DNA from: a bacterium
GTDB taxonomy: Bacteria; Patescibacteriota; Minisyncoccia; Moranbacterales; UBA2206
Direction: 5' to 3'
Length of the DNA stretch: 64,000 bases
NCBI GenBank assembly: GCA_021785125.1
Contig: JAJYGF010000004.1
Span: 3,124-67,123 of the forward strand
The notes below the pieces were generated by a model. The model was not told the origin of the DNA, made no database searches, and saw only the letters and a list, made by a program, of their open reading frames with translations. Below, piece by piece: positions 33,402 through 64,000 of this stretch (within the stretch, counting starts at the first letter, position 1; each line of letters opens with the position of its first letter). Position numbers and translations under genes: made by a program.

Positions 33402-33423
33402 GATATCGTCATAAAAATATCGG

Positions 33424-50147: not shown

Positions 50148-50159
50148 TCCAAGTGATGA

Positions 50160-50283
50160 ATCCCGCACTAACTTTGGATAGCAATAAAATTTATACCACA
50201 TCGAAAGGGCGGGAATCTATAAAAAATAAATAGCCTTGGTTTTTATTGGAGAAATTTAATAAAATCCAAAGTTAGTGCGGGAT
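50160..50283 (+). promoter_or_regulatory. perfect 20-bp inverted repeat pair (ATCCCGCACTAACTTTGGAT / ATCCAAAGTTAGTGCGGGAT) forming a ~124-nt hairpin whose right arm contains the start codon of 50282-51193
   Basis: Left arm 50160-50179, right arm 50264-50283; ATG at 50282-50284. Confidence 0.7.
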
Positions 50284-51193: not shown

Positions 51194-51215
51194 AATTTTA
51201 AACTCAAGAAGGAAT

Positions 51216-51262
51216 CCTAAAACTCAGTTTTATGGATTTCCTAAAACTGAGTTTTAGGAAAA
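51216..51262. terminator. two adjacent near-identical hairpins (TCCTAAAACTSAGTTTTAGGA) in opposite orientation
   Basis: aatcctaaaactcagttttatgga + tttcctaaaactgagttttaggaa between two secreted-protein genes. Confidence 0.4.
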
Positions 51263-51263
51263 A

Positions 51264-52364: not shown

Positions 52365-52379
52365 CCAGCCCGACATTCA

Positions 52380-52475: not shown

Positions 52476-52793
52476 ATGAATATGAATAAATCCAAAATAA
52501 TCGCAAACAAGCTCTTCTGGTTCTTAAGAAGAAACGGGGTTGCTTTGGAACCGTCCAGGGATCGCCATCTCATTATCAACCAAACATTGGCCATGGGATC
52601 CATGGATGACATACAGAAGCTTTTTCATGAATATGACAAAGAAACCATCCGCGAAGAGTTTCGAAAGCCTGCGGCAGGCCTGTATGCGCCTGCGGTTTTG
52701 CATTTTTTTGAATACATTCTCGATGTTCAATTGAATAATAGCGAACAATATATAAAAAAAATACATGGAAAGCCTACACCTGGACATTCTTGA
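52476..52793 (+). CDS. hypothetical protein, possible antitoxin partner of downstream nucleotidyltransferase
   Basis: 105 aa; overlaps next ORF by 29 nt; apparently leaderless. Confidence 0.4.
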   Translation: MNMNKSKIIANKLFWFLRRNGVALEPSRDRHLIINQTLAMGSMDDIQKLFHEYDKETIREEFRKPAAGLYAPAVLHFFEYILDVQLNNSEQYIKKIHGKPTPGHS

Positions 52794-53418
52794 TCAAGAA
52801 CGAAAAGATTTGTTCCAAAAATTATCAGCATTTCACTCTCTTGGTTATTTATCCGGTGGAACATCGCTGGCATTGCAATTAGGACATCGCATATCCTATG
52901 ATTTTGATATTTTCTGCCCGAAGGAAATTTCAGAATCGTTTGCGGCCAAGGTTCAAAAGGAGATTCCCGTGAAGGAAGTGCTTATAAACAACAGTGATGA
53001 ATTCACATTTCTTACCGGACAAGACATCAAAATATCTTTTATTTTTTATCCCTTTGATTTGAGGGAATATCTGCTTGAATTTTCAGGAGCTCCTTTGCTC
53101 TTTGCTTCTCCCATAGGCGTGGCATTGACAAAAGCGTATGCCCTGAACAGAAGAAATGCCTGGCGGGATTATGTCGATTTATATACGATATTAAAAAAGG
53201 GCATCGTAAAACTTGAGGAAATTATACAAAAATCGCAAGAAGTTTATGGAAATTTGTTCAATGAAAAGCTTTTTCTGGCCCAGCTTGTGTATACGAAAGA
53301 CATCTCTGAAGCGGAAATCGCCGGCACGCAGATGATCAAACCGACAACGCTTCAGGAAGTCGCCGCATTTTTTGAAAAAGAAGTCACGGCTTACGTGGAA
53401 AGAAAATTGGGCCAATAA
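52765..53418 (+). CDS. nucleotidyltransferase, AbiEii/AbiGii-like (DUF1814-like) toxin family
   Basis: YLSGGTSLALQLGHRISYDFDIF resembles the GGTAL...RxSxDxD motif of AbiEii. Confidence 0.45.
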   Translation: MESLHLDILDQERKDLFQKLSAFHSLGYLSGGTSLALQLGHRISYDFDIFCPKEISESFAAKVQKEIPVKEVLINNSDEFTFLTGQDIKISFIFYPFDLREYLLEFSGAPLLFASPIGVALTKAYALNRRNAWRDYVDLYTILKKGIVKLEEIIQKSQEVYGNLFNEKLFLAQLVYTKDISEAEIAGTQMIKPTTLQEVAAFFEKEVTAYVERKLGQ

Positions 53419-53438
53419 CATTATTAAAATGATTCCGC

Positions 53439-53515
53439 CAAACAGCCTGAATTTGTCGAGGCTGTTTTTTTGTATTATCTTATAGCGATAAACCTTCGGC
53501 GGATGTTGATTTTAT
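53439..53515 (+). repeat. direct repeat copy 2 (identical 77 bp): terminator + promoter -35 cassette
   Basis: Same sequence as 52380-52456; TTGATT-17-TAAAAT then ATG 53541 six nt after -10. Confidence 0.85.
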
Positions 53516-53540
53516 GCCCGATTAGTACTAAAATAAACTC

Positions 53541-53831
53541 ATGAGCAAGCAAGAAATAAAGCAAAAAATCAACAAACAGCTTCCATTCTTGAAAGCCAGA
53601 TACCATATCAAGCGTATCGGCATTTTTGGTTCATTCGTACGCAACGAACAAAAAAAGGGGAGCGACTTGGACATTCTGGTGGAATTTGAAACACCCATCG
53701 GTTTTTTCGAGTTTATCCGACTGGAAAATGAATTGAGCCGCACCTTGCGCCACAAAGTGGACCTGGTTTCCAAAAATGCCGTTAAACCGGCGGTGAAGAA
53801 AGAAATTTTAAAAGAAATTCAATATGTCTAG
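53541..53831 (+). CDS. minimal nucleotidyltransferase (MNT/MntA-like antitoxin)
   Basis: GIFGSFVRNEQKKGSDLDILVEF = GSxxRGxxxxxSDxDxxV polymerase-beta NTase motif. Confidence 0.75.
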   Translation: MSKQEIKQKINKQLPFLKARYHIKRIGIFGSFVRNEQKKGSDLDILVEFETPIGFFEFIRLENELSRTLRHKVDLVSKNAVKPAVKKEILKEIQYV

Positions 53832-54183
53832 GCGAGGAATAAGGCTTTATCTGGAGGATATCCGCACATCCATCCGAAGGATAGAACAATACACGCGCGG
53901 AGTAAGTTTTGACGAATTTTATCGCAATCATCTGATGATTGACGCAGTTGTAAGAAATCTTACGATTATCGGCGAAGCAGTCAAAAATATTCCGACTGAA
54001 TTGAAGTCCAAAAATCCTGAAGTCGCATGGAAAGAAATCAAGGGCATGCGAAACAAAGTTATACATGAATATTTTGGAACTGACGAAGAAATTTTATGGA
54101 AGACCGTTCAGGATGACATTCCGGTTTTCAAAAAACAAATTGCCAAACTTTTGAAAGATAGCAAGCAAAAGGACTTAAAATAG
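53824..54183 (+). CDS. HEPN/DUF86 (HepT-like toxin) protein
   Basis: RNKVIHEY = Rx4-6H HEPN motif; overlaps MNT gene by 8 nt. Confidence 0.75.
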   Translation: MSRRGIRLYLEDIRTSIRRIEQYTRGVSFDEFYRNHLMIDAVVRNLTIIGEAVKNIPTELKSKNPEVAWKEIKGMRNKVIHEYFGTDEEILWKTVQDDIPVFKKQIAKLLKDSKQKDLK

Positions 54184-54256
54184 ACGCCCCAATGGCTATT
54201 TTTATTTTCCCCGGTTGATTTTTGCCTTATTTCAGGCAAAATCAGACATACCCTTG

Positions 54257-54544
54257 CCCAGCACTAACTTTCACTCCGTCGTATGCATTATGTATATATT
54301 ATAAAAAATGAAATTGATGAACTGTATTATGGATGCACAAACAACCTAAAGAAAAGATTTTTTGAGCATAATAGCGGCGAATCTTTTTCTACCAAGAATC
54401 ATGAATGGAAATTAGCCTATTATGAGGCTTATTTAAGGGAAGAAGATGCCTGGAATCGTGAAAAACAACTAAAAAGGCATGGACAAGCTTTGGCTCAACT
54501 AAAGCGCAGAATCAAAAAATCTTTAAGTGAAAGTTAGTGCTGGG
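54257..54544 (+). mobile_element. 288-bp unit: GIY-YIG gene bracketed by perfect 19-bp inverted repeats (CCCAGCACTAACTTTCACT / AGTGAAAGTTAGTGCTGGG)
   Basis: Left arm 54257-54275 ends 7 nt before ATG 54283; right arm 54526-54544 contains the stop codon; arm core GCACTAACTTT is shared with the 50160/50264 inverted-repeat pair. Confidence 0.5.
54283..54537 (+). CDS. GIY-YIG nuclease family protein (second paralog)
   Basis: VYIIKNEIDELYYGCTNNLKKRFFEHNSG GIY-YIG motif. Confidence 0.8.
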   Translation: MHYVYIIKNEIDELYYGCTNNLKKRFFEHNSGESFSTKNHEWKLAYYEAYLREEDAWNREKQLKRHGQALAQLKRRIKKSLSES

Positions 54545-54545
54545 T

Positions 54546-54574
54546 TGACTTTTTCTGCCAGATGTGCTAGTATA
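54546..54574 (+). promoter_or_regulatory. sigma70-like promoter (TTGACT-17-TAGTAT) with strong RBS (AAAGGAGGAG) before 54676
   Basis: ttgact ttttctgccagatgtgc tagtat; aaaggaggagag atg. Confidence 0.5.
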
Positions 54575-54675
54575 TACAGTTACGCTAGTAAAGTGCGGTT
54601 ATTTTAAAACCGAATATCAATCAACAATCATTTTCGCCCGGAAGGCGAAGGCTCAATTGAGCCAAAGGAGGAGAG

Positions 54676-55092
54676 ATGAAAGACTTCGTATTGGCAATAA
54701 TAGCCGCGGCTATAGTAACCACCGTTGCATTTGTCATTGTTTTTTCGACTCATCACAACACAACCCCTATCATGCCCAAATATCCTAACCTGTCTCCGGA
54801 AGGACAGCAACGGATGGCTATGATCAAATCGGCGATAGCAAAATATCTGCCCAACATGTTACCCGACATGTTACCCGACATATCAAATCAAAAAGTGTCC
54901 CCGAGCTTTAAACTAGTGGACGTTTCCGAAAAACCGAAAGATGGTTGGCACTACCATGGATACATCCAGCTGTCGGACGGGAGACGTATTTTATTCCAGG
55001 CAAATTATTGGAACATAAGCAATGGCCAGGTGCAAGTTTGGCTGTCCACGGCCACGAAGACATACGGCCTGCTTGATTACCCTAACGGGTAG
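54676..55092 (+). CDS. hypothetical membrane-anchored protein
   Basis: N-terminal TM; contains tandem MLPD repeat. Confidence 0.5.
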   Translation: MKDFVLAIIAAAIVTTVAFVIVFSTHHNTTPIMPKYPNLSPEGQQRMAMIKSAIAKYLPNMLPDMLPDISNQKVSPSFKLVDVSEKPKDGWHYHGYIQLSDGRRILFQANYWNISNGQVQVWLSTATKTYGLLDYPNG

Positions 55093-55189
55093 GAAATCTC
55101 GAGAGAGAATTGAGAGAGCTTGGCAAAACAGCCTGGCTCTCTTTTTTTTTATTTTTATGGTATAATAAAAACATCTAAAAATAGAAGTT

Positions 55190-57031
55190 TTGAATCTAAA
55201 ACAAAAATCGATCCGGAAATTTTTTTTCGCAGCAGTTATTGTTACGATGATTGCTAATTTTTTATTTGTGCCTTTGACAACAATGGCACAAAATATGGAT
55301 CCGGCACATTTTGTCGGATCAGGCGGCGATCTGGGTGTGGCCGTAAGCGAAGCCAATCCCAACCCGCCTCCGGCAACCGAATCCTGCAATTTTTTTTGGA
55401 ACCCTATCAGCTGTTCTTTATTGGCCGTATTAAAAGTAGGCGGCTGGTTGATTGACGCATCCGATCAGATTTTCCAATACAGCATCAGCCCCAGCATTTT
55501 CAGCCAGGTTGCCGGTAATGGCAATAGGGCTATCTATGATACTTGGGCAGAAGTGCGCGATTTTCTAAACGTCGCTTTCATCCTCGTGCTGCTTTTTTCC
55601 GCTTTCGCCACTATCTTTCAAGTGGAGAAGTACAGTTATAAGAAAATTCTCTTATGGCTGATAATCATGGCTTTGTTGGTGAACTTCAGCTTCCCCATAA
55701 CCAGATTCATTATTGATATTTCAAACTCATTGATGTACACACTGCTAAGCCGTTTAAGTTTTGGCGGCGATCCTTCACACATTATCACCAACATCACCCA
55801 GGACAGCAACATAAAAGATATCATCGTGCCTCAAAACGGCACGAAAGCTTCTGTCGCCCTCTTGCTCGCTTCCGTTATTTTCATTTTTATTCTCGCTATC
55901 ACTTTTTTAGCGCTGGGAATATTGCTGGTCATAAGAATGATCGCTTTGGCCATACTTATAATTTTTTCTCCGGTGGCTTTTGTCGGATCCATCATCGGAA
56001 AGGGCAAACAATGGTGGGACTATTTGTTCAAATACGCCTTTTTCGGTCCGATAATGATCTTCATGTTAAGTGTGGCCATGGCCGTTTTGAAAAACTCTAT
56101 AAAAATACAGTTCACAATGCAAGGCGTCAACAACAAAATAGACAATCCCATAAACCAACATCTCACCGGCGCTATGGCGGCATATTCAATTCCGATCGTG
56201 ATTCTTTGGATCGGCATGGGCGTCGCTCAGAAAATGGGCATCGCCGGCGCGGCGGCAGTCACTGGACAGGCGCAGAAATTCGCCAAATGGGTTCCAAATG
56301 CGATATTCAAGGCCACCGGCGTTCCGGGCGGAGTCAAAAAAGCCGCAGATTATTATGGCAAGAAGGGCGCTCCGCTCGGCCTTAACCGAATTCCTGGATT
56401 GCGAGGATCTGAGAAGACAGAGGCTACTGAAGCTTGGTGGGCTTCGAAGCTAGGAGTTAAGGGCGCAAAAGATCAGGACATGAAAAAGAGAGCGGAAGAA
56501 TACAAGAAAGAAAATGCGGATACTGGAATGCTTAAGGACAGATGCTCCAAAGGAGATGCAGCCGCTTGTTATCGATTGGCTGATGATGGATTTTTGGATT
56601 CTAAGGAATATAACGATTTCTCAGCAAAAAATAAAGACGCTGGCCTGCAAAAAACCCTTAATTCTAAAGTTAAGAAAAATAGAGTGGACCTATTGATAAA
56701 TTACAGAATGAACAGCAAAAAAGAATTGGATGAAGTCAAAAAGAACAATAAAAACATAAATACGGATGAGGAAGCACGAGAATTCATCGCCAAGGATGAG
56801 ATTGGCAAATTAAATCCTGAGAAGTGGGGAGAGCAATATTGGAAAGACATAATGAAGGACCCATCACCTGAAATCAAAAAGGCCGTCGAGGAAAGCTATA
56901 GCGCTTTGGCAGAATCCGCTCAAGAAGATATCAAGAAACGCCTCAATCCGAACAATGCTGCCGCCCTGAGAGAGGTTATGACTGGCCAAAAAACCAGCGG
57001 AACAAAAAGACCCGTAGGATTCAACCGTTAA
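55190..57031 (+). CDS. polytopic membrane protein, VirB6/TrbL(PrgH/TcpH)-like candidate T4SS channel component
   Basis: Signal-like N-terminus, ~6 TM segments in the middle, long charged C-terminal tail; position upstream of VirB3/VirB4-like genes. Confidence 0.4.
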   Translation: MNLKQKSIRKFFFAAVIVTMIANFLFVPLTTMAQNMDPAHFVGSGGDLGVAVSEANPNPPPATESCNFFWNPISCSLLAVLKVGGWLIDASDQIFQYSISPSIFSQVAGNGNRAIYDTWAEVRDFLNVAFILVLLFSAFATIFQVEKYSYKKILLWLIIMALLVNFSFPITRFIIDISNSLMYTLLSRLSFGGDPSHIITNITQDSNIKDIIVPQNGTKASVALLLASVIFIFILAITFLALGILLVIRMIALAILIIFSPVAFVGSIIGKGKQWWDYLFKYAFFGPIMIFMLSVAMAVLKNSIKIQFTMQGVNNKIDNPINQHLTGAMAAYSIPIVILWIGMGVAQKMGIAGAAAVTGQAQKFAKWVPNAIFKATGVPGGVKKAADYYGKKGAPLGLNRIPGLRGSEKTEATEAWWASKLGVKGAKDQDMKKRAEEYKKENADTGMLKDRCSKGDAAACYRLADDGFLDSKEYNDFSAKNKDAGLQKTLNSKVKKNRVDLLINYRMNSKKELDEVKKNNKNINTDEEAREFIAKDEIGKLNPEKWGEQYWKDIMKDPSPEIKKAVEESYSALAESAQEDIKKRLNPNNAAALREVMTGQKTSGTKRPVGFNR

Positions 57032-57035
57032 TAAA

Positions 57036-58049
57036 ATGCCCGAACTAAATCAAAACACAGAAATCAAAATAGATAGGTATATTATTCCTTGGGATGTTTC
57101 TATTACCAAAAATCCGGATGATGAAACATTTGAAATAATCGCAGAATTCCAAAAAAAATTCCTATCCTTGCCTGGATCTGTTCAGGATAAGCTAGTTTCA
57201 AAAAAAACCGGTGAAAAAATCCAAAGCATCGGCATGAACTTTGGTTTAAGCATGCCTCAAATAGCCAATATTGCCCGCGCTGTCAGAAGCTATTATTTCG
57301 GCGAATTAAAATTGGAAGACCTGCCGTTTTATTTGGCCAAAGAAATCCCCATCGACTTATCTAAAGCTCAAGAAATTTCAAGAATGGTTATTGAAAAAAT
57401 CATCAATGACCGGTCCATTGAGCAAGCCCGCCAGGCCGAATTAGAAAGTACAACGCTTTCTGACGCATTGAAAAAATATCCGGAAATCGGCGAACAGCTC
57501 ATCACTTCCGATCGAATCAACATCAAAAGCTTTCCTGAGCCAGCAAGACCATCGATCAAGAATTGGCTGGCGGACTACACTTTCGTCCTCGGATACGGCA
57601 CCCATGACGCCATCGCCAGGGCCAATTATATGTTCCAAGGCACCAATGCCAGAAACCTGGCTTCCACTGATCGGGAAAGATTGGCCTATATCTTGAAATC
57701 ATATGATGAAAACACATTGGTCACCGTGGATAAGAATGAGAAAAAGATTGTTTTTCCGACATCCGACAAGAGACAAGAACCGCCAAGGTCGGACCTTGGC
57801 CAGGCAAATGACAACTCGAAGGTCCGACCTTTGAACATTCCCCAAGCGCCATCAAGGTCGGACCTTGAAACCGCTTCGACCACCAAAATCAGCTATTCTT
57901 CGCCGCAGAAATTGCCGTATGAAAAAATGAGAACACAGCAACAGCCGTACCGCATAACGCCGATATATGGACAACAGAAAAAAGAAGAGCCGAAGAAAGA
58001 CGAGAGAATCCTGAATAAAAATGTCGTAGACCTGAGAGATAGTATGTAA
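57036..58049 (+). CDS. hypothetical protein (T4SS-like cluster)
   Basis: 337 aa, soluble, repeated PPRSDLGQA / PSRSDLETA motif. Confidence 0.45.
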   Translation: MPELNQNTEIKIDRYIIPWDVSITKNPDDETFEIIAEFQKKFLSLPGSVQDKLVSKKTGEKIQSIGMNFGLSMPQIANIARAVRSYYFGELKLEDLPFYLAKEIPIDLSKAQEISRMVIEKIINDRSIEQARQAELESTTLSDALKKYPEIGEQLITSDRINIKSFPEPARPSIKNWLADYTFVLGYGTHDAIARANYMFQGTNARNLASTDRERLAYILKSYDENTLVTVDKNEKKIVFPTSDKRQEPPRSDLGQANDNSKVRPLNIPQAPSRSDLETASTTKISYSSPQKLPYEKMRTQQQPYRITPIYGQQKKEEPKKDERILNKNVVDLRDSM

Positions 58050-58095
58050 TTTTAAATTTGAAATTTAAAATTTTGAATCAATTTTCAATTTATAA

Positions 58096-58461
58096 ATGAC
58101 TGAATATTCCGAAAAATACGACTTGGAAACAAGAACGTCAAAATTCAGCGGTGAAATAATATTATTTATTAAAAGTTTAAATAAAGATATAATAAACGCG
58201 CCCTTAATAAGCCAGTTGATCAGATCCGCGACTAGTATTGGCGCGAATTACTGCGAAGCAAATGGAGCCAGTTCGAAAAAAGATTTTCACAATAAAATAT
58301 ACATTTGTAAAAAAGAATGCAAGGAAACAAAATACTGGCTAGAACTACTTGCAAAAGCAAACCAAGACAAAAAAGACAAATGCAGAGAGCTTTGGAAAGA
58401 AGCTCAGGAACTGACCCTGATATTTTCTAAAATTGCATTAACATTAAAAAACAAGAAGTGA
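58096..58461 (+). CDS. four-helix-bundle protein (23S rRNA intervening-sequence protein family)
   Basis: SATSIGANYCEAN...SKKDFHNKIYICKKECKETKYWLELL matches the family pattern; flanked both sides by AATTTAAAATTT-type repeats. Confidence 0.65.
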   Translation: MTEYSEKYDLETRTSKFSGEIILFIKSLNKDIINAPLISQLIRSATSIGANYCEANGASSKKDFHNKIYICKKECKETKYWLELLAKANQDKKDKCRELWKEAQELTLIFSKIALTLKNKK

Positions 58462-58523
58462 TTTAAAATTTAGTAATTTGAATTTCATTTTAAATTTTAA
58501 ATTTAAAATTTCAAATTTGATCC

Positions 58524-58937
58524 ATGGCTCTGTTCAACATTCCACAATTCATCGACATCGAAGACAAGATCGTCGGGCCGCTGACCGCCAAGCAATTGGG
58601 CTGGCTGGCGGCCGGAGGAGTCGTCCTGCTCGTCCTTTGGAGCATGCTGGACATGTCCGCTTTCATCATGGCGGCGCTCATCGTCGGATTCATCTTCGGG
58701 ATGCTGGCTTTTTACCGCCCCAATAACCAATCATTGCTGGTCTATATCCTTTCGGTCTTTTCTTTTTTTACCAAACCGAAAATGTATGTCTGGATACGGG
58801 TTCCCGAGATTGAAAAAGCCAAGAAGAAAGCCGTTGTCAAGAAGATGCAGGCCGCAACAGCCGCACCAAAAGGGATAAATGAGAATAAGATAGAAGAAAT
58901 AACCGATTTGCTCAGCAAATCGAATTTAAAATTTTAA
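58524..58937 (+). CDS. PrgI/VirB3-like small membrane protein
   Basis: FIDIEDKIVGPLTAKQLGWLAAGGVVLLVLW two-TM pattern typical of PrgI family upstream of VirB4. Confidence 0.45.
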   Translation: MALFNIPQFIDIEDKIVGPLTAKQLGWLAAGGVVLLVLWSMLDMSAFIMAALIVGFIFGMLAFYRPNNQSLLVYILSVFSFFTKPKMYVWIRVPEIEKAKKKAVVKKMQAATAAPKGINENKIEEITDLLSKSNLKF

Positions 58938-58960
58938 ATTTATAATTTTAAATTTCCCGA

Positions 58961-59647
58961 ATGGAAACATTGCATTCGAAAAAAATAACCAAACCGACCA
59001 CAACTGCCGCCTCGCAGCAGTTTTTGGATGTGGCCGAGATCAAGGAAGATGTGGTCGTTCTGAAAAGCGGATCGTTCCGTTCGATCCTGGCGGTTTCCGC
59101 CATCAATTTCGACCTGAAATCTTCCGACGAACAGGAGGCGATCATCAATCAATACCAAAATTTTCTCAATTCCTTGGATTTTCCAATCCAAGTCTTGGTC
59201 AGTTCGCGCAAACTGAACATCGACAAATACCTCGAATTCATCGAAGAAAAAGAAAAGCAGCAGAACAACGAGCTCTTGAAGCTCCAGGTTTCCGAATACA
59301 AGAATTTTATCGGGCAGCTGGTGGAAGTTTCCAACATCATGGACAAAAATTTCTACATCGTCGTCCCGTTCTCTCCGGTGGAAAACAAAGAGAAAGGGTT
59401 TTTTTCCAATATCCTGAGCACGTTCAATCCGAAAAAAAACATCCTCGAGAAACGAGAAAATTTCGAAACCTACAAAAGCCAGCTTTTCCAGCGCATCGAC
59501 CACATCACCGCTTCGCTTTCCGGCATCGGCTTGCGCATCGCTCCGCTCAAGACCCAAGAACTGATCGAATTGATATATAACTCATACAATCCGAACCTGT
59601 ATCTGGATACGCAGTTGGGGGATGTGGAGAAATTGGAATTAAAATAA
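58961..59647 (+). CDS. hypothetical protein (T4SS-like cluster)
   Basis: 228 aa; segment VVVLKSGSFRSILAVSAINFDLKSSDEQEAI loosely resembles VirB4 N-terminal region. Confidence 0.4.
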   Translation: METLHSKKITKPTTTAASQQFLDVAEIKEDVVVLKSGSFRSILAVSAINFDLKSSDEQEAIINQYQNFLNSLDFPIQVLVSSRKLNIDKYLEFIEEKEKQQNNELLKLQVSEYKNFIGQLVEVSNIMDKNFYIVVPFSPVENKEKGFFSNILSTFNPKKNILEKRENFETYKSQLFQRIDHITASLSGIGLRIAPLKTQELIELIYNSYNPNLYLDTQLGDVEKLELK

Positions 59648-59769
59648 TTTTAAATTATAAATTTAAAATTTTAAGTCAATTTTAACTGACCAAATTAATA
59701 AATTTTAAAATTTAAATATTCGGATTTCATTTTAAATTTAAAATTGAAAAATTTAAAATTTTAGTTACT

Positions 59770-61620
59770 ATGTTTGATTTTCTAAACAAAAATAAAAATG
59801 CGGCGGCTCCGGCCAAAAAAGCGCCTGCGGACAAAGAGGCTCAGGATGAGATTTTGCAGTCGGAAAAATATTACCAGGAAGGCGTGGCCAAGCTGCAAGA
59901 CCTGATCGCGCCGGCCGCCATCCAAGTCGCGCCGAAATATATCCGCGTCGGAGAAACTTTGGCACAGACCATTTTTGTCGTCACATATCCTCGCTATCTG
60001 CACAGCAATTGGTTCTCGCCGATCATCAACATCGACATGCCGATCGACATTTCCATGTTTATCCATCCGATCGACACTTATGACATCCTGAAAACCTTGA
60101 AAAAAAGCGCGACCCAGGTCCAATCCAGATCGCACATGGAGGAAGAAAAAGGCATGATCCGCGATCCGTCCCTCGAAACCGCCATCCAGGATATCGAAGA
60201 TCTTCGCGACAAGCTCCAGCAAGGGACTGAAAAATTTTTCCGCTTCGGTTTGTATATCACCGTATATGGACAGGACGAAAAAGAACTCTATAAATCCGCC
60301 AAAAGCATCGAGTCAATTTTGGAAGCGCAATTGGTCTATGTAAAGCCGTCCATCTTCAAAACGGAGCAAGGATTCAATTCGACCATACCTCTTGCGAACG
60401 ATGAGCTGGATATCGGGACCAGCATGAATTCCGCGCCGCTTTCCACCACTTTTCCTTTCGTTTCGTCTTCACTTTCCAACGACGAAGGCATCTTGTACGG
60501 CATCAACCGCCACAACAACAGCCTGATCCTGTTCGACCGGTTCAAGATGGAAAACGCCAACATGGTCGTCTTCGCCAAATCCGGCGCCGGAAAAAGCTAC
60601 ACGGTCAAACTGGAAGTCCTGCGCTCAATGATGGTCGGAACGGACGTCATCATCATCGATCCGGAAAATGAATACAAGCATCTTTGCGAAACGGTCGGCG
60701 GCACATTTTTGAAAATATCTCTGAATTCGGACAACCACCTGAATCCTTTCGACCTGCCGAAAGTCCAGGAAGACGAGGATCCGGAAGACATCCTGCGCAA
60801 CAATATCGCCAATCTCTTGGGTCTTTTGCACATCATGCTGGGCGGCATCACGCCGGAAGAAGATGCTATTTTGGACCGGGCCGTGCATGAGACATACGCT
60901 ATCCGCGACATTACGCCGCAGGCCAATTTCAACGCCCTGTCCAAAGAATCTTTTCCGACCATGTCCGACCTATATCAAGTTTTGCGCAACATGGAAGGCG
61001 GGGAAGACCTGGCCACCCGCATGGAAAAATACACCGAGGGCGTCTTTTCGGGATTTTTGAATCACACGACCAACATCAAAGCTGACAACCAGCTGGTGGT
61101 CTTCAACATCCGCGACATGGAGGAAGAATTGCGCCCGATCGCCATGTACATCGTCCTGCAGTTCATTTGGAACGAGATGCGCACCAATCTGAAGAGGCGG
61201 TTGGTCCTGGCCGATGAAGCCTGGGTGATGATGAAATATGACGATGCCGCGTCCTTTCTCTTCGGAATTGCGAAACGATGCCGAAAATATTATACTGGAC
61301 TTACGACCATCACACAGGACGTCAATGACTTCTTGTCCTCCCGCTACGGAAAACCGATCGTGACCAACTCTTCCATCCAGCTCCTCCTGAAACAGTCGCC
61401 GGCCGCGATTGATGTGATTGCTGAAACATTTTATCTGACTGATCAGGAAAAATTCTTATTATTGGAAAGCAATGTGGGCGAGGGCATCTTCTTTGCCGGC
61501 ACCAAGCATGTGGCCATCAAAGTCATCGCCTCATACAGCGAAGACCAGATCATCACGACCGATCCGGCCCAGCTTCTGGAAATCGAAAAAGCCAAAAAAG
61601 AATTTTCTGATGAAGAATAG
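59770..61620 (+). CDS. VirB4/TrbE/PrgJ-like T4SS ATPase
   Basis: N-terminal VirB4-type domain (YIRVGETLAQTIFVVTYPRYL), Walker A FAKSGAGKSYTVK, Walker B RLVLADEAW. Confidence 0.8.
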   Translation: MFDFLNKNKNAAAPAKKAPADKEAQDEILQSEKYYQEGVAKLQDLIAPAAIQVAPKYIRVGETLAQTIFVVTYPRYLHSNWFSPIINIDMPIDISMFIHPIDTYDILKTLKKSATQVQSRSHMEEEKGMIRDPSLETAIQDIEDLRDKLQQGTEKFFRFGLYITVYGQDEKELYKSAKSIESILEAQLVYVKPSIFKTEQGFNSTIPLANDELDIGTSMNSAPLSTTFPFVSSSLSNDEGILYGINRHNNSLILFDRFKMENANMVVFAKSGAGKSYTVKLEVLRSMMVGTDVIIIDPENEYKHLCETVGGTFLKISLNSDNHLNPFDLPKVQEDEDPEDILRNNIANLLGLLHIMLGGITPEEDAILDRAVHETYAIRDITPQANFNALSKESFPTMSDLYQVLRNMEGGEDLATRMEKYTEGVFSGFLNHTTNIKADNQLVVFNIRDMEEELRPIAMYIVLQFIWNEMRTNLKRRLVLADEAWVMMKYDDAASFLFGIAKRCRKYYTGLTTITQDVNDFLSSRYGKPIVTNSSIQLLLKQSPAAIDVIAETFYLTDQEKFLLLESNVGEGIFFAGTKHVAIKVIASYSEDQIITTDPAQLLEIEKAKKEFSDEE

Positions 61621-61636
61621 TTTTATATAAAAATAT

Positions 61637-62155
61637 ATGGCCTCTCCCGAACAACATGCCAGCAATTTGAAAGCCGCGCGTGCCATAGGCAGCATTAGGA
61701 ACGCAAAAAATACCGCAAAGAATGCGAAGAAAAACATCAAGGCGGCTGTGAATATCGGCGCACTGATGACATACATCGATCCGTTCATGGATTGGCTGTT
61801 CGGCATCGCCCTGGTTTTCGCCATCATCAAAGACGTTCTAAATTATGTTCTCACTGCATTGATCGCAGCTGGTGGAATAGGCGAACTTTTAATCATCCTA
61901 TTTACCATAATATGTTCAATAGCCATAGGATTCATTATGCTACTGACTGGATCAAATGGAAAAACCAAATCCGCCAAGGCATTATCAAGATTTTTAGTTT
62001 TACTGTTTGGCAGCTTTTTAGAAACCATTCCCGGAGTGGATTTATTCCCATTTGAAACATTTTCTGTTATTATCATCGTTTGGATGACGCTGGTTGAAAG
62101 AAAAAGAGCGGCGGAAGAAGGCGGCGGGATGGAGCCCGAGCCGGCCGTTGCCTAG
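61637..62155 (+). CDS. hypothetical membrane protein (3-4 TM), basic N-terminus
   Basis: 172 aa; directly downstream of VirB4-like gene. Confidence 0.45.
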   Translation: MASPEQHASNLKAARAIGSIRNAKNTAKNAKKNIKAAVNIGALMTYIDPFMDWLFGIALVFAIIKDVLNYVLTALIAAGGIGELLIILFTIICSIAIGFIMLLTGSNGKTKSAKALSRFLVLLFGSFLETIPGVDLFPFETFSVIIIVWMTLVERKRAAEEGGGMEPEPAVA

Positions 62156-62161
62156 ACAAAA

Positions 62162-62821
62162 ATGCGAAAAATAAAAACCCTACAACTTATTCTGCCTTGG
62201 AAAACGGAAGTTATCAGCTCCGCGGTCATCTTTTTGAGCCTGTTTTTGGTTTATCTGTTTCCGGTCGCCGACATTTTCCAGAATTTCAACCGCAGCCTGT
62301 TTTTCATGGCCATCCTGCCTTTTTTATATATCAAATTCGTCCTGAAAAAAAACTTGTCCGATTACGGCTTCAATTTGGATAACAAAAAAACAGGTTTCTT
62401 CTGGGCGGCCGCCATGTTCGCGGTTTCCTTCGGAACAGTCCTCGTGTTGATCCAATTCGCCGGTTTCGACAAAAAATACACCATTCCGTCCTATATCGCC
62501 GACAATTTTTGGATCTTTTTGGTCTATGAATTGCTCCTTATCAATTTCCAGATATTTATCAATGAATTTTTTTTCCGCGGATTCTTACTTTTCAGCTTTA
62601 TGGAAAAAATCGGATATTGGTCGATCGCCATTCAGGCTTTGGTCTACATTCTCTTTGCCGCAAGCGCCATAGGTTTTTCTTGGAACATCACGCCATTTAT
62701 CATAATGTCTGTTACCGGCGGGATCGTCGCCTACAGAAGCAGAAGCTTCCTGTATTCATATTTCATGAGCCTGTTTTTCATGATCATCCTGGATGCGTAC
62801 ATAATCCATTTATATAAATAA
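62162..62821 (+). CDS. CPBP-family intramembrane metalloprotease (CAAX protease/Abi-like)
   Basis: NEFFFRGFLLFSF = EExxxR-type motif 1 region; polytopic. Confidence 0.6.
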   Translation: MRKIKTLQLILPWKTEVISSAVIFLSLFLVYLFPVADIFQNFNRSLFFMAILPFLYIKFVLKKNLSDYGFNLDNKKTGFFWAAAMFAVSFGTVLVLIQFAGFDKKYTIPSYIADNFWIFLVYELLLINFQIFINEFFFRGFLLFSFMEKIGYWSIAIQALVYILFAASAIGFSWNITPFIIMSVTGGIVAYRSRSFLYSYFMSLFFMIILDAYIIHLYK

Positions 62822-62827: not shown

Positions 62828-64000
62828 ATGAAAATTTTCAAAAAAATATTCGCCGTGAGCTTGGTCGCCGCACTCCTGGTCATGAACGTGCGTTCGGCTT
62901 ACGCTGACGCCCTATCCGATCCGAAAGCGGCCGCCCAACAAGCCATGCAGGGCATCATGCAGATGTTCGGCACCAACCAAGCCGAGGTGCAGAACCTCGT
63001 CCAAACTGCCAATGTTTATTCCCAGAAAGGCACGCCGCCGCAAGTCGCGTTGACCTTCACCCCGGACAATCCAACACCGGGCGAAAAGGTGACCGCCACT
63101 GCCGCGCCGTCTTATTTCTACAACGACGCGTCAAGATTGTATTATACCTGGTACATAAAACATAACAATGGAGATGGCATAAAAAGCGAGTATGATCCAT
63201 TTTTTGGAAAAAATATTGATTGTGATGGCAAAGGTAACTGCGATCTTAATAATGACGGTCAAATAGATATTGAGGATTACAAGATCGAAGCCATGCGCAC
63301 CATGGTCAACGGCGGATTCGATTGGAATACGGTTTTGGGCACAGACAGTCCGAATTGCTCAACAAGTTCCGCCAACAATCCGTCCTACTGCACGCAGAAT
63401 GACATGTATAACAGCAGCAATAATTCCAATTTTGATGAAAAAAAAGCAGGTTACCAAGCCGCCTGGGGCGGTGACGACCAGCGCGGAAAAAACGCCCACT
63501 GCTTCGTCCAAAATGTCCAGACCGGAAATCAATATGAGATAAACTGCGACCAACATCTGTTTCCAAGCGCCCCGAAAGATACGACCGGCGACGGACATTT
63601 CACGCTCAATGAAGAAAAATTCTGGCACACGGATCCTTCGGCTTCCGACACGTCCGGCGCCGGTACGGTTGATGAGGCCACGGTTGCCGGATTGGGCAAG
63701 AACGCTTTTTCGTGGAACTATCAGCCGGGCGACCAAGTGGGCGTCGTAGTTGAAGGCGTTTCACCGGCCGCCACTCAAAACGCCGATTCTTCATATCGGA
63801 CCATGTTTGCCATGCCGAACGGCGTTTGCACGGATTCCGGAGGAAATAATCTGGTCGATAATGTCCCTTTGACAGGAAAAAGTACGAACACCAGCGAGAC
63901 GATCGACCCGCTTTCGGGCGAAAGGATAGACGCCGTCGCCACAACCAACCTGTTCAAACAGTCCGACACCGAATATCTGCAAAAAACCGGTGTGCTTTTC
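62828..64000 (+). CDS. large secreted protein (5' complete, 3' end beyond window)
   Basis: ATG 62828, signal peptide MKIFKKIFAVSLVAALLVMNVRSAYA, frame open for 391 codons to the window end; absent from ORF track because no stop is reached. Confidence 0.5.
   Translation, partial: MKIFKKIFAVSLVAALLVMNVRSAYADALSDPKAAAQQAMQGIMQMFGTNQAEVQNLVQTANVYSQKGTPPQVALTFTPDNPTPGEKVTATAAPSYFYNDASRLYYTWYIKHNNGDGIKSEYDPFFGKNIDCDGKGNCDLNNDGQIDIEDYKIEAMRTMVNGGFDWNTVLGTDSPNCSTSSANNPSYCTQNDMYNSSNNSNFDEKKAGYQAAWGGDDQRGKNAHCFVQNVQTGNQYEINCDQHLFPSAPKDTTGDGHFTLNEEKFWHTDPSASDTSGAGTVDEATVAGLGKNAFSWNYQPGDQVGVVVEGVSPAATQNADSSYRTMFAMPNGVCTDSGGNNLVDNVPLTGKSTNTSETIDPLSGERIDAVATTNLFKQSDTEYLQKTGVLF

What the first reader, a model, noticed from the sequence alone, without database searches (positions are those of the whole stretch)
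55190..62160. Compact VirB4 / VirB6-like / VirB3(PrgI)-like type-IV-secretion-type cluster with atypical neighbours
A clear VirB4-family ATPase (Walker A GAGKSYT, Walker B DEAW) is preceded by a PrgI/VirB3-like two-TM protein and a 613-aa polytopic TrbL/VirB6-like protein. This is the minimal Gram-positive-style conjugation/T4SS core. No relaxase, coupling protein (VirD4) or VirB11 is visible in the window. Instead the cluster is followed by a CPBP intramembrane protease and a large secreted protein, and is preceded by two secreted low-complexity proteins (50282-52364). This suggests a dedicated protein-export or cell-cell-contact apparatus rather than a plasmid transfer system. Every spacer inside it is built from AATTTAAAATTT-type repeats. 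A four-helix-bundle (23S-IVS family) gene bounded by those repeats is inserted between core genes.
Basis: partly seen in the sequence, partly recalled or inferred. Interest (0 to 1): 0.65.

Follow-up and report, generated by a model that had tools for sequence, protein, structure and literature searches.

The report
Patescibacterial type IV secretion locus
This is the chromosomal, non-conjugative type IV secretion locus already described for ultrasmall Patescibacteria (here a Moranbacteria genome), so it is ordinary for this group; the less expected feature is that its gene spacers hold mobile hairpin elements like those that interrupt 23S rRNA.

Summary
The genes are real: a VirB4 ATPase (59770-61620; NCBIfam CD1110 family, 381 bits, above the cut-off), a PrgI/VirB3 protein (58524-58937) and a VirB6/TrbL-fold protein (55190-57031).

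The source is a Candidatus Moranbacteria (Patescibacteria) chromosome. In 80 related species the order ksgA, ubiA, sec303, sec366, virB6, orf337, prgI, trsD, virB4, tm172, CPBP-like, sec1103, pilin-SLT, orf384 recurs. The "atypical neighbours" are therefore conserved parts of a locus of about 18.6 kb. It runs past the window end and includes a VirB2-like pilin.

No relaxase or coupling protein lies within 55 kb upstream or 11 kb downstream. This matches the published Patescibacteria T4SS (Wang 2023; Quinonero-Coronel 2025), so it is a new member of a known kind.

The AATTTAA repeats are real: 43 matches against 4.8 expected, in four of the six spacers. They form inverted-repeat arms. The four-helix-bundle gene sits in the loop of such a hairpin, as in 23S rRNA intervening sequences. 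Related species carry the same hairpins without the gene, and a strain about 99% identical over the flanking DNA has one spacer replaced.

The parts
50282..51193 (+). sec303: a signal-peptide protein with low-complexity stretches and the first gene of the conserved locus. Its 5' leader (about 50160-50283) forms a long-range hairpin whose 3' arm ends at the AUG.
   Evidence: Found at the same relative position in 49 loci, median identity 36%. No Pfam hit. Leader fold z -6.5. Promoter-like site at 50121-50148, 11 of 12 matches with TG.
51215..51259 (+). Hairpin of about 20 bp between sec303 and sec366.
   Evidence: MFE -26.7 kcal/mol, z -8.0, 0 of 200 shuffles as good.
51264..52364 (+). sec366: a secreted or anchored, mostly helical, Gln/Asn-rich protein. 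It lies directly upstream of virB6 in species without the insertion. Its role is unknown; the VirB5-like idea could not be tested.
   Evidence: 49 loci, median identity 32%. No PDB profile hit. Model pLDDT 57. No fold matches. A terminator-like hairpin plus U-run follows at 52366-52412.
52476..55092 (+). Insertion specific to this genome, not part of the T4SS. It holds DUF6922/AbiEii, MNT/HepT, GIY-YIG and a 138-aa membrane orphan. It splits the conserved locus into two transcription units.
   Evidence: Pfam hits. 0 of 80 related loci carry these genes here. Terminator hairpin at 55112-55150, z -4.2.
55158..55166 (+). Extended -10-like element TGgTATAAT, 24 nt upstream of the virB6-like start. 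It is the likely promoter of the core operon in this genome (inferred).
   Evidence: Read directly from the sequence. It follows the terminator at 55112-55150.
55190..57031 (+). VirB6/TrbL-like polytopic membrane protein, 613 aa. It has a confidently modelled helical domain of about 240 aa at its C-terminus, as in 'extended VirB6' proteins.
   Evidence: Precomputed PF19590 TrbL_3. NCBIfam Mbov_0396 ICE TM protein, E 0.0024. 19 of 60 relatives hit PF04610. pLDDT 82.9. Foldseek top hits 7o3v_J/F, 8rtd_L and 8rt9_F (7o3v_G at rank 7) are TrwI/VirB6, prob 0.92-1.0, target TM 0.41-0.51. Present in 64 of 80 loci.
57036..58049 (+). orf337: a conserved protein with no signal peptide or TM segment visible in its sequence, of unknown function. 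Its conserved core is residues about 120-250 (motif PSIKNWLxDY).
   Evidence: 61 of 80 loci, always between virB6 and prgI. No Pfam hit in 41 orthologues. 838 representative clusters at E<=0.001.
58045..58513 (+). IVS-like cassette: a 5' arm (58045-58071) and a 3' arm (58487-58513) made of AATTTAA-type heptamers, which pair and enclose the four-helix-bundle (S23p/Avd-family) ORF at 58096-58461.
   Evidence: PF05635 6.4e-19 and TIGR02436 8.6e-25. The arms pair in both the MFE and the centroid fold of 58040-58530. Arm duplex -19.6 kcal/mol, z -5.0, 0 of 300 shuffles as good. Empty sites in L041, L034, L025 and L020 keep both arms without the ORF.
58524..58937 (+). PrgI/VirB3-like protein with two TM segments, 137 aa. 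Its last five codons (SNLKF) lie inside the heptamer repeat.
   Evidence: PF12666 38.8 bits, cut-off 27. 75 of 80 loci. Repeat at 58923-58955.
58961..59647 (+). TrsD-like protein, 228 aa. It is the N-terminal VirB4 module encoded as a separate ORF.
   Evidence: Residues 19-136 match positions 2-120 of the 752-position CD1110 VirB4 profile. NF041427 TrsD/TraD 1.7e-7. Precomputed PF26593 TraC-like. 77 of 80 loci, median identity 68%. Always a separate ORF, median gap to virB4 23 nt.
59645..59769 (+). trsD-virB4 spacer of 122 nt made of AATTTAA-type heptamer repeats.
   Evidence: In this window the fold is not better than dinucleotide shuffles (z -0.4). Across species 64% of the 40-160-nt spacers at this position have z below -3.
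59770..61620 (+). VirB4 ATPase body, 616 aa, intact.
   Evidence: NF045971 380.8 bits (cut-off 325), matching profile positions 184-734. Walker A and B invariant. 80-100% identity to more than 100 Moranbacteria/Parcubacteria proteins.
61637..62155 (+). tm172: a conserved polytopic membrane protein of unknown function.
   Evidence: 56 of 80 loci, directly after virB4. No consistent Pfam hit. Not related to the pilin family (hhalign probability 1.5%).
62162..62821 (+). CPBP/Rce1-like membrane protein that lacks the canonical histidine motifs. It is probably not a conventional protease.
   Evidence: NF040590 MrtA 6.3e-7, far below the cut-off. 21 of 44 orthologues hit PF02517. No conserved His; only E123, the FF.GF block and D211 are conserved.
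62828..64000 (+). N-terminal 391 codons of sec1103, an 1103-aa surface protein with a signal peptide and a C-terminal membrane anchor. It is an adhesin candidate and runs off the window end.
   Evidence: Full ORF at L001 10667-13978. 56 of 80 loci. No Pfam domain. It is followed outside the window by the pilin-SLT gene (L001 14047-14865), orf237 and the beta-propeller orf384.

Best explanation
The region is the chromosomal type IV secretion locus of a Candidatus Moranbacteria (Patescibacteria/CPR) bacterium. It belongs to the Patescibacteria T4SS clade, which descends from monoderm (MPF-FATA) conjugation machinery.

Shown here:
- The membrane core is a VirB6/TrbL-like channel protein, a PrgI/VirB3 protein, and a VirB4 ATPase split into a TrsD-like N-terminal ORF and a 616-aa ATPase ORF.
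- Just past the window end lies a VirB2-like pilin. In most orthologues it is fused to an SLT (VirB1-like) cell-wall hydrolase domain.
- Lineage-specific conserved genes complete the locus: sec303, sec366, orf337, tm172, a histidine-less CPBP-like protein, the anchored 1103-aa surface protein and a beta-propeller protein.
- The locus is inherited in a fixed chromosomal place next to ksgA and ubiA and has no relaxase or coupling protein nearby.

Inferred:
- VirB4/TrsD powers assembly of a VirB6-PrgI channel and a pilin-based conduit through the wall.
- The fast-evolving surface proteins mediate contact with a host cell.
- The machine moves macromolecules between epibiont and host (effector export or nutrient/nucleic-acid uptake) rather than conjugating DNA.

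The AATTTAA-type repeats are the arms of intercistronic inverted-repeat hairpins. These belong to a dispersed, rapidly turning-over family of elements. One of them carries the four-helix-bundle (S23p) ORF in its loop, the same architecture as 23S rRNA intervening sequences. I infer that they are RNase III-type processing or stability sites in the operon mRNA.
For: Identity of the parts:
- VirB4 is above the curated NCBIfam cut-off.
- PrgI is above the Pfam cut-off.
- VirB6 is supported by fold and by family hits.
- TrsD and VirB4 match complementary, non-overlapping segments of full-length VirB4 profiles.
- In the pilin family 38 of 43 members hit T4SS_pilin, 18 hit SLT and 8 hit SLT_3.

Organism: the VirB4 relatives at 80% identity or more are named Moranbacteria, Parcubacteria or Patescibacteria.

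Chromosomal and vertical inheritance:
- The order ksgA, ubiA(-), sec303, sec366, virB6, orf337, prgI, trsD, virB4, tm172, CPBP, sec1103, pilin, orf384, wzy(-) recurs in most of the 80 species loci.
- Only housekeeping genes surround it.
- Median identity is 81% for VirB4 against 60% for KsgA. It is 32-39% for VirB6, tm172 and the secreted proteins sec303, sec366 and sec1103.

Literature:
- The same component set, the absence of relaxase and the ksgA proximity are described for Patescibacteria (PMC12102498).
- The system is essential in Southlakia epibionticum (PMC12857230).
- Its role is stated to be unknown (PMC11665869).

Hairpins:
- The cassette arms pair.
- 40% of 169 spacers in the 80 loci fold with z below -3, against 2% of coding controls.
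- A lag of 7 or 14 gives the best autocorrelation in 52 of 169 spacers, against 17 of 169 shuffled spacers.
- Empty sites exist in related species.
- In L002, which is 98.3-99.6% identical over the flanking DNA, the prgI-trsD spacer is replaced by a different 113-nt hairpin. That hairpin is related to the element upstream of ksgA at 47533-47621 and to elements in L038 and L067.
- The Coxiella IVS has a 28-bp terminal stem, an S23p ORF and variable heptameric repeats, and is cut by RNase III (PMC4990558).
Against: - No function was tested in any Moranbacteria. The direction and cargo of transport are unknown.
- A T4CP or a relaxase could lie elsewhere in the genome. The paper finds T4CP homologues in most Patescibacteria genomes, mostly far from virB4.
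- No VirB8-like component was identified.
- The Foldseek E-values for VirB6 are weak (0.14-0.96), and the protein's own sequence misses Pfam TrbL in my copy.
- This genome's pilin copy scores 26.4 bits against a cut-off of 26.6. Its SLT-like domain is not detected by Pfam, and the ES/GLMQ motifs are altered.
- For the hairpins, AU-only stems are weak. The window's own trsD-virB4 spacer is not better than dinucleotide shuffles.
- No RNase III gene or cleavage data are available.
- The repeats could simply be slippage-prone AT-rich DNA.
Confidence: 0.85

Rival explanations
1. The cluster is the mating-pair-formation module of an ordinary or decaying integrative conjugative element. Its relaxase and coupling protein would lie outside the region examined.
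For: VirB4, PrgI and TrsD are most similar to conjugation proteins of Firmicutes elements. The same PrgI / TrsD-like / VirB4 order is found on a Geobacillus plasmid. A tyrosine recombinase lies next to tRNA genes 21 kb upstream, at 33540-34496. Toxin-antitoxin and GIY-YIG genes sit inside the locus.
Against: The locus occupies the same chromosomal site between ubiA/ksgA and wzy in most of the 80 species, with housekeeping flanks. VirB4 is more conserved than KsgA. No relaxase or T4CP domain occurs in 55 kb upstream or 10.6 kb downstream. The TA/GIY-YIG island is specific to this genome (0 of 80). Relaxases are rare in Patescibacteria: 109 in 3,035 genomes.
Confidence: 0.05
2. The system is mainly an uptake device for DNA, RNA or nucleotides taken from the host. 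It would be analogous to the T4CP-less ComB system of Helicobacter or the archaeal Ced system, and would feed an organism that cannot make nucleotides.
For: There is no coupling protein at the locus. VirB4 weakly matches the Ced import ATPase profile (CedB 9.1e-14). Uptake is proposed in the literature for Saccharibacteria. A 2026 preprint links host-RNA feeding, tubular T4SS-like structures and the VirB4 clade. PNPase lies about 18 kb upstream.
Against: The CedB match is far below its cut-off (51 bits against 700) and reflects general VirB4 homology. No ComEC-like or nuclease partner is in the locus. Nothing in the sequence gives a direction of transport.
Confidence: 0.25
3. The AATTTAA-type repeats are not RNA structures but DNA-level elements. 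They would be AT-rich promoter/UP elements, or simple-sequence contingency tracts whose heptamer slippage tunes or switches expression of prgI, trsD and virB4.
For: The repeats end 5-8 nt before the start codons of prgI, trsD and virB4, and no Shine-Dalgarno motif is present there. Many -10/-35-like matches fall in the repeats. Heptamer slippage does occur in this population: a sister assembly lacks one 7-nt unit in the (GAAATTG)n tract inside uvrD/pcrA, which splits that gene. An H. influenzae study links simple-sequence-repeat phase variation to RNase III-targeted 5' UTR structure (title and abstract only).
Against: Arm complementarity is kept even where arm sequences differ completely between species (CAATGAACAA type, CATGCAG type, GC-containing hairpins). 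This points to selection on pairing. Among five assemblies that are nearly identical (99.97-100%), the T4SS spacers show no copy-number differences. The two readings are not mutually exclusive.
Confidence: 0.3

Closest known systems
Patescibacteria-clade T4SS (Southlakia epibionticum ML1, Wang et al. 2023 Cell; survey by Quinonero-Coronel et al. 2025, PMC12102498)
   Same: VirB4 with an adjacent TrsD-like ORF, PrgI/VirB3, VirB6 and a VirB2-like pilin nearby. No relaxase nearby. Chromosomal location, with ksgA among the common neighbours. Monoderm-type system with no VirB7/9/10.
   Different: A different lineage (Moranbacteria/Paceibacteria, not Saccharimonadia). One pilin was identified, usually fused to an SLT domain, rather than the six-pilin array of Se ML1. 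Conserved lineage-specific partners (sec303, sec366, orf337, tm172, histidine-less CPBP-like protein, 1103-aa anchored protein) are not mentioned in the paper's main text. The spacers are occupied by hairpin/IVS-like elements.
MPF-FATA conjugation systems of Firmicutes: pGO1/pSK41 trsC-trsD-trsE, pCF10 PrgH/PrgI/PrgJ, C. difficile CD1110-family elements, Geobacillus plasmid pGspE55-1
   Same: The order PrgI / TrsD-like ORF / VirB4 is seen directly on pGspE55-1. VirB4 passes the CD1110-family cut-off. The envelope architecture is monoderm.
   Different: Those systems are carried on plasmids or ICEs with a relaxase and a coupling protein and transfer DNA. According to PMC12102498 they lack VirB2-like pilins, and TrsD and VirB6 do not co-occur in the pGO1 subclass. 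TrsD identity to the plasmid proteins is only 25-30%.
R388 TrwI/VirB6 (PDB 7o3v, 8rt9, 8rtd)
   Same: It is the best structural match of the 613-aa protein's membrane domain (prob 0.92-1.0, about 290 aligned columns).
   Different: Sequence identity is 11-13% and the TM-score only 0.41-0.51. The window protein adds a signal-like N-terminus, a disordered linker and a helical C-terminal domain of about 240 aa. No VirB5 partner was identified.
23S rRNA intervening sequences carrying an S23p ORF (Coxiella burnetii, Leptospira; PMC4990558)
   Same: A four-helix-bundle (PF05635) ORF of about 120 aa. Terminal inverted repeats that form a stem of about 26-28 bp. Tandem heptameric repeats next to the ORF. 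Total size 469 nt against 428-444 nt.
   Different: It sits in an intercistronic spacer of a protein-coding operon, not in helix 25/45 of 23S rRNA. The arms are almost pure A/T. RNase III cleavage is untested here. ORF-less versions fill neighbouring spacers.
T4SSs that work without a coupling protein (Bordetella Ptl, Brucella VirB, Helicobacter ComB)
   Same: No T4CP is encoded with the machine. Sec-signal proteins are encoded in the locus.
   Different: Those are diderm systems with a VirB7/9/10 outer-membrane core. There is no specific sequence relationship beyond VirB4 and VirB6.

Membership tests
Type IV secretion system (any class) | A VirB4-family ATPase with intact Walker A and B motifs | tested here: met
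   NF045971 380.8 bits against a cut-off of 325. GAGKSYT and DEAW are invariant in orthologues.
Patescibacteria-clade T4SS (MPF-FATA-derived) | A TrsD-like ORF adjacent to virB4 | tested here: met
   58961-59647: NF041427 1.7e-7 and a match to positions 2-120 of the CD1110 VirB4 profile. Precomputed PF26593. Adjacent in 76 loci.
Patescibacteria-clade T4SS (MPF-FATA-derived) | A PrgI/VirB3 homologue near virB4 | tested here: met
   PF12666 38.8 bits against a cut-off of 27.
Patescibacteria-clade T4SS (MPF-FATA-derived) | A VirB6/TrbL homologue near virB4 | tested here: met
   Fold match to TrwI/VirB6. 19 of 60 relatives hit PF04610. Precomputed PF19590. The protein's own sequence is below threshold in my Pfam copy.
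Patescibacteria-clade T4SS (MPF-FATA-derived) | A VirB2-like pilin near virB4 | tested here: met
   L001 14047-14865, about 4.6 kb beyond VirB4 and outside the window. 38 of 43 orthologues hit PF18895. This genome's copy scores 26.4 bits against a cut-off of 26.6.
Patescibacteria-clade T4SS (MPF-FATA-derived) | VirB4 falls in the monophyletic Patescibacteria clade | not tested
   No tree was built. Indirect support: of the 120 best hits (80-100% identity), those that carry an informative organism name are Moranbacteria, Parcubacteria or Patescibacteria, as are most of the 80 loci.
Patescibacteria-clade T4SS (MPF-FATA-derived) | Chromosomal location without an associated relaxase | tested here: met
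   Housekeeping flanks and no relaxase domain in 55 kb upstream or 10.6 kb downstream. Synteny is conserved.
Conjugative element (plasmid or ICE) | A MOB relaxase | tested here: not met
   None among the precomputed Pfam hits of all called genes in the window and the downstream flank. The rest of the genome was not examined.
Conjugative element (plasmid or ICE) | A VirD4/TcpA coupling protein | tested here: not met
   None in the same range. The rest of the genome cannot be examined with these tools.
Conjugative element (plasmid or ICE) | Variable presence or location among related genomes, with integration hallmarks at the borders | tested here: not met
   The neighbours and the gene order are the same across most of the 80 species loci.
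CPBP/Rce1-like intramembrane proteases | Sequence membership in PF02517 | tested here: inconclusive
   The window protein has no Pfam hit and only a weak MrtA hit (29.8 bits against a cut-off of 200). 21 of 44 orthologues hit PF02517, best 5.2e-8.
CPBP/Rce1-like intramembrane proteases | Catalytic motifs EExxxR, FxxxH and HxxxN/D (defining motifs recalled from knowledge of the family) | tested here: not met
   No histidine is conserved in 44-58 orthologues. Only a single Glu in the '.EFFF.GF' block and D211 are conserved.
23S rRNA intervening sequence (IVS) elements | An S23p/four-helix-bundle ORF enclosed by terminal inverted repeats that form a long stem | tested here: met
   PF05635/TIGR02436. 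The arms 58045-58071 and 58487-58513 pair in both the MFE and the centroid fold. Duplex z -5.0 here, and -5.9 to -8.1 in L015, L019, L023 and L063 (L026 weaker, -2.6).
23S rRNA intervening sequence (IVS) elements | Location inside a 23S rRNA gene | tested here: not met
   It lies between two protein-coding genes. There is no rRNA in the window (Rfam).
23S rRNA intervening sequence (IVS) elements | Excision by RNase III | not testable with these tools
   This needs transcript-end mapping or an in vitro cleavage assay.

The most novel reading that the evidence does not exclude
The intercistronic spacers of the Moranbacteria T4SS operon are colonised by a mobile family of AT-rich hairpin elements with heptamer periodicity. 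These are the mRNA-borne counterparts of 23S rRNA intervening sequences, and some carry S23p/four-helix-bundle or GxxExxY-type ORFs in the loop. They would be cut by RNase III, so that prgI, trsD and virB4 are expressed from processed, Shine-Dalgarno-less short-leader mRNAs. Their turnover and heptamer slippage would tune the stoichiometry of the secretion machine.
Probability: 0.3. Interest if true: 0.6.

Novelty: new member of a known kind. Interest (0 to 1): 0.35.

Why it matters
The T4SS of Patescibacteria is one of the few systems shown to be essential for their epibiotic life, and its role is still unknown.

This locus adds a well-resolved Moranbacteria example. It lists which genes travel with the core across about 80 species: a pilin-lysozyme fusion, a histidine-less CPBP-like protein, a 1103-aa anchored surface protein and three orphan proteins. 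These are concrete candidates for the host-contact parts.

It also shows that VirB4 is under tighter constraint than a ribosomal RNA methyltransferase, while the surface parts evolve fast.

The hairpin/IVS-like elements, if processed, would be an unrecognised layer of operon regulation. They would also link rRNA intervening sequences to mRNA. This is a side result that still needs experiments.

Tried and rejected
- The four-helix-bundle gene as the Avd of a diversity-generating retroelement. No reverse transcriptase appears among the Pfam hits of any called gene, and the window holds only one such gene. Template and variable repeats were not searched for. Dropped.
- sec366 as a VirB5-like stalk or tip protein. 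No PDB profile hit. The model is poor (pLDDT 57), so the empty fold search means nothing either way.
- tm172 as a second VirB2-like pilin. One of 44 orthologues hit T4SS_pilin weakly, but the profile-profile comparison with the pilin family gave a probability of 1.5%. Rejected.
- A sequence-profile search of the VirB6-like family against PDB sequences found nothing. Only the fold search worked.
- Rfam found nothing in the T4SS region at gathering thresholds.
- The source assemblies (GCA_027428275, GCA_027428215, GCA_027338925) are not in the two held supplementary files of PMC12102498. The published T4CP and relaxase calls for this genome could therefore not be read off.
- The promoter scan in the AT-rich repeats gives many hits on both strands and is uninformative.
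It was rerun with fewer shuffles.
- The representative search with orf337 showed a large family (838 clusters) but gave no clue to function.

Full report
**1. What is in the sequence**

The interval 55190-62160 holds seven co-directional ORFs on the + strand.

- The 616-aa product of 59770-61620 is a VirB4 ATPase.
  - It hits Pfam P-loop_TraG (8.7e-29), AAA_10 and DUF87.
  - It passes the curated cut-off of NCBIfam NF045971, 'VirB4-like conjugal transfer ATPase, CD1110 family' (380.8 bits against 325).
  - The Walker A (GAGKSYT) and Walker B (DEAW) residues are invariant in 23 orthologues.
- The 137-aa product of 58524-58937 passes the Pfam cut-off for PrgI (38.8 bits against 27).
- The 121-aa product of 58096-58461 is a four-helix-bundle protein of the 23S-rRNA-IVS family (PF05635 6.4e-19; TIGR02436 8.6e-25).
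- The 613-aa product of 55190-57031 gave no hit in my Pfam copy, but three lines of evidence assign it to VirB6/TrbL.
  - A precomputed PF19590 TrbL_3 hit is on record for the identical protein.
  - 19 of 60 relatives hit PF04610 TrbL/VirB6, best 1.3e-8.
  - Its AlphaFold model (mean pLDDT 82.9) has chains of R388 TrwI/VirB6 as its four best Foldseek matches in the PDB (7o3v_J, 8rtd_L, 8rt9_F, 7o3v_F; 7o3v_G is seventh). These score probability 0.92-1.00 and target-normalised TM 0.41-0.51 over about 290 columns, although the E-values are weak at 0.14-0.96.
- The model also shows a confidently folded helical C-terminal domain (residues about 420-600).

**2.

The 228-aa ORF at 58961-59647 is TrsD-like.
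- Its residues 19-136 match positions 2-120 of the 752-position CD1110 VirB4 profile.
- The 616-aa ORF matches positions 184-734 of the same profile.
- The same complementary pattern appears with the Mycoplasma VirB4 profile (91-262 against 292-893).

VirB4 is therefore encoded in two pieces. This is not damage. The two ORFs are separate in all 76 related loci where both could be delimited (median gap 23 nt). TrsD is 68% identical across species. A Geobacillus plasmid has the same order: PrgI, TrsD-like ORF, VirB4.

**3. Source and context**

The identical proteins occur on contigs of several MAGs (GCA_027428275.1, GCA_027428215.1, GCA_027338925.1). VirB4 relatives with 80% identity or more are named Candidatus Moranbacteria, Parcubacteria or Patescibacteria. 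The lineage is given.

The precomputed Pfam hits for every called gene in the window show housekeeping functions. Examples are uvrB, RNase J, gyrA, ftsH, PNPase, ksgA and ubiA; the window also holds eleven tRNA genes. They show no relaxase, no VirD4/TcpA-type coupling protein and no VirB11.

The 10.6 kb beyond VirB4 (locus L001) encode the following:
- an 1103-aa protein with a signal peptide and a C-terminal anchor;
- a 272-aa protein;
- a 237-aa anchored protein;
- a 384-aa beta-propeller protein;
- then Wzy-like and glycosyltransferase genes on the other strand.

**4. Synteny**

I used a VirB4 alignment to fetch 80 loci, one per species, mostly Moraniibacteriota. I then searched them with the window's proteins. 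The following order recurs in most loci that have enough flanking DNA:

ksgA, ubiA(-), sec303, sec366, virB6-like, orf337, prgI, trsD, virB4, tm172, CPBP-like, sec1103, orf272, orf384, wzy(-)

Three conclusions follow.
- The two 'low-complexity secreted proteins' (50282-52364), the CPBP-like gene and the large secreted protein are conserved members of the locus, not atypical neighbours.
- The conserved locus is about 18.6 kb. It starts at 50282 and runs about 4.9 kb past the window end.
- The block 52476-55092 is absent from all 80 loci, so it is an accessory insertion in this genome. It holds DUF6922/AbiEii, MNT/HepT, GIY-YIG and a 138-aa orphan. It is bracketed by two terminator-like hairpins with U-runs (52366-52412 and 55112-55150) and is followed by an extended -10-like TGgTATAAT at 55158-55166.

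Conservation is uneven:

| Protein | Median identity |
|---|---|
| VirB4 | 81% |
| TrsD | 68% |
| KsgA | 60% |
| PrgI | 50% |
| VirB6-like, sec303, sec366, sec1103, tm172 | 32-39% |

This means a tightly constrained motor with fast-evolving membrane and surface parts.

**5. Other parts**

- **orf272 family.** 38 of 43 members hit T4SS_pilin (PF18895), 18 hit SLT and 8 hit SLT_3. It is therefore a VirB2-like pilin fused to a VirB1-like lytic transglycosylase.
  - The copy in this genome reaches 26.4 bits against a pilin cut-off of 26.6.
  - Its C-terminal domain has diverged (GEG and GYSQ where most orthologues have ES and G.MQ).
- **CPBP-like protein.** Its orthologues belong to the Rce1-like family (21 of 44 hit PF02517). 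No histidine is conserved, and only one Glu of the EExxxR block is kept. I do not accept it as a demonstrated protease.
- **orf337.** It has no recognisable domain in 41 orthologues, although it has 838 representative relatives.
- **tm172.** It has no consistent family and is unrelated to the pilin.
- **sec366.** It could not be modelled well (pLDDT 57). The idea that it is VirB5-like remains untested.

**6. Comparison with what is known**

Quinonero-Coronel et al. 2025 (PMC12102498) surveyed 3,035 Patescibacteria genomes. Their findings match this locus closely.
- VirB4 is present in 2,417 genomes, mostly in one clade nested in MPF-FATA.
- TrsD is the commonest companion, and PrgI/VirB3, VirB6 and VirB2-like pilins lie near virB4.
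- T4CP homologues are mostly encoded far from virB4.
- Relaxases are found in only 103 genomes.
- ksgA is among the frequent neighbours.

A 2025 review (PMC12857230) notes that the Southlakia epibionticum T4SS is essential for growth on its host and unusual in having pilins. A 2024 perspective states that the role is 'completely unknown', with effector delivery or nucleotide uptake proposed (PMC11665869).

The main text of the survey does not mention a pilin-SLT fusion, a CPBP/Rce1-like gene or 23S-IVS-type genes.

**7. The repeats**

AATTTAAAATTT (up to 1 mismatch) occurs 43 times against 4.8 expected, and 29 of the matches lie in 58047-59761. TRF reports them as period-7 arrays. They fill the four spacers longer than 20 nt but not the 4-nt and 16-nt spacers. 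They also run into the last five codons of prgI.

The repeats form inverted-repeat arms.
- In a fold of 58040-58530, positions 58045-58071 pair with 58487-58513 in both the MFE and the centroid structure. The pairing encloses the whole four-helix-bundle ORF.
- The arm duplex is -19.6 kcal/mol against -7.3 +/- 2.5 for shuffles (z -5.0).
- The same holds for four-helix-bundle cassettes in L015, L019, L023 and L063 and for a GxxExxY-type cassette in L016 (z -5.9 to -8.1). L026 is weaker (z -2.6), and an ORF6N insert in L028 shows no arm pairing (z +0.6). The arm sequences in some of these loci are quite different.
- Related species have 'empty' spacers that consist of the two arms alone (L041, L034, L025, L020).

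The pattern extends across the 80 loci.
- 40% of 169 spacers of 40-160 nt fold with z below -3, against 2% of length-matched coding controls.
- The highest fractions are upstream of prgI, trsD, virB4 and the CPBP-like gene, at 50-64%.
- A lag of 7 or 14 is the best autocorrelation lag in 52 of 169 spacers. The figure is 17 of 169 for shuffled spacers and 14 of 168 for coding controls.

The elements turn over quickly.
- L002 is 98.3-99.6% identical over the flanking DNA. Its prgI 3' end and prgI-trsD spacer are replaced by a different 113-nt hairpin (z -3.5).
- That hairpin is related to the hairpin upstream of ksgA in the window (47533-47621) and to elements in L038 and L067.

Hairpins also occupy the sec303 leader (z -6.5), the sec303-sec366 spacer (z -8.0) and the ksgA upstream region (z -4.0). 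The feature is therefore genome-wide, not specific to the T4SS.

The architecture matches the Coxiella burnetii 23S rRNA intervening sequence. That element is 428-444 nt long, has a 28-bp terminal stem and an S23p ORF, carries tandem heptameric repeats whose number varies between strains, and is excised by RNase III (PMC4990558).

I infer, but have not shown, that these are mobile IVS-like elements acting as RNA processing or stability sites in the operon transcript. A DNA-level role as promoter or slippage tracts remains possible and may coexist with the RNA role. The window's own trsD-virB4 spacer does not beat dinucleotide shuffles (z -0.4).

**8. Verdict**

It is not novel.
- Mechanism. 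*Shown:* the parts list, the chromosomal fixation and the absence of nearby conjugation genes. *Inferred:* a VirB4/TrsD-powered VirB6-PrgI channel with a pilin conduit, used for contact-dependent exchange with a host cell. Direction and cargo are unknown.

Noticed in passing
window 36753-36812 (inside the uvrD/pcrA ORF 35948-38338, - strand); L009 about 1802-1854: An in-frame tract of about nine GAAATTG heptamers lies inside the UvrD/PcrA helicase gene (encoding ...QISNFQFPISNQISISNSQIS...). A sister assembly, 99.7% identical over this 2.5-kb gene region, lacks exactly one 7-nt unit. The loss shifts the frame and splits the gene into 238-aa and 530-aa ORFs. This may be a slippage (phase-variable) tract in a DNA-repair gene, or population heterogeneity.
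   Followed up: partly
window 2582-2821 (- strand), flanks about 2545-2581 and 2822-2858: Rfam finds a group I intron (66.8 bits, gathering score 50) between tRNA-Gly and tRNA-Val. When the two flanks are joined in silico, ARAGORN finds a tRNA across the junction, so the intron probably interrupts a tRNA gene. The anticodon depends on the exact splice site and was not resolved.
   Followed up: partly
window 52476-55092: An accessory island is inserted in the middle of the conserved T4SS locus. It holds a DUF6922/AbiEii pair, an MNT/HepT pair, a GIY-YIG protein and a 138-aa membrane orphan. It is absent from all 80 related species loci but present in all near-identical assemblies.
   Followed up: yes
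L002 826-943, compared with window 58901-58936: L002 is 98.3-99.6% identical over the flanking DNA. Even so, the 3' end of prgI and the prgI-trsD spacer are replaced by an unrelated 113-nt AT-rich hairpin. PrgI becomes 135 aa with a different C-terminus. The new hairpin resembles the element at window 47533-47621 and elements in L038 and L067.
   Followed up: yes
L016 8122-8517; L038 4477-4860; L063 4239-4622; L074 11919-12305; L028 8263-8787; L085 9671-9985; L013 2986-4515: In other Moranbacteria the spacers of the same T4SS locus hold other small co-oriented genes. By the look of their sequences these are GxxExxY-type, ORF6N/KilA-N-type, GIY-YIG and MNT/HEPN pairs; they were not run through profile searches. 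The operon spacers seem to be a preferred landing site for small selfish genes.
   Followed up: partly
L001 14047-14865 (about 2.0 kb beyond the window end): A VirB2-like T4SS pilin domain is fused to a C-terminal Cys-rich lytic-transglycosylase (SLT) domain in most orthologues (38 of 43 hit the pilin family, 18 hit SLT and 8 hit SLT_3). The SLT part of this genome's copy has diverged. The fusion is not mentioned in the main text of the published survey.
   Followed up: partly
The sec303 leader has a 3' arm that ends exactly at the AUG (z -6.5). There is a stem of about 20 bp between sec303 and sec366 (z -8.0) and a long AU hairpin upstream of ksgA (z -4.0). Several genes here, including prgI, trsD and virB4, have no Shine-Dalgarno motif.
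   Followed up: partly
window 33329-35927: A XerC/D-like tyrosine recombinase (33540-34496, - strand) lies next to tRNA-Met and tRNA-Val and is followed by a LysM-CHAP cell-wall hydrolase (34785-35927). They lie 19-22 kb upstream of the virB6-like gene, with no evident link to the T4SS. I did not check whether they mark an integrated element.
   Followed up: no
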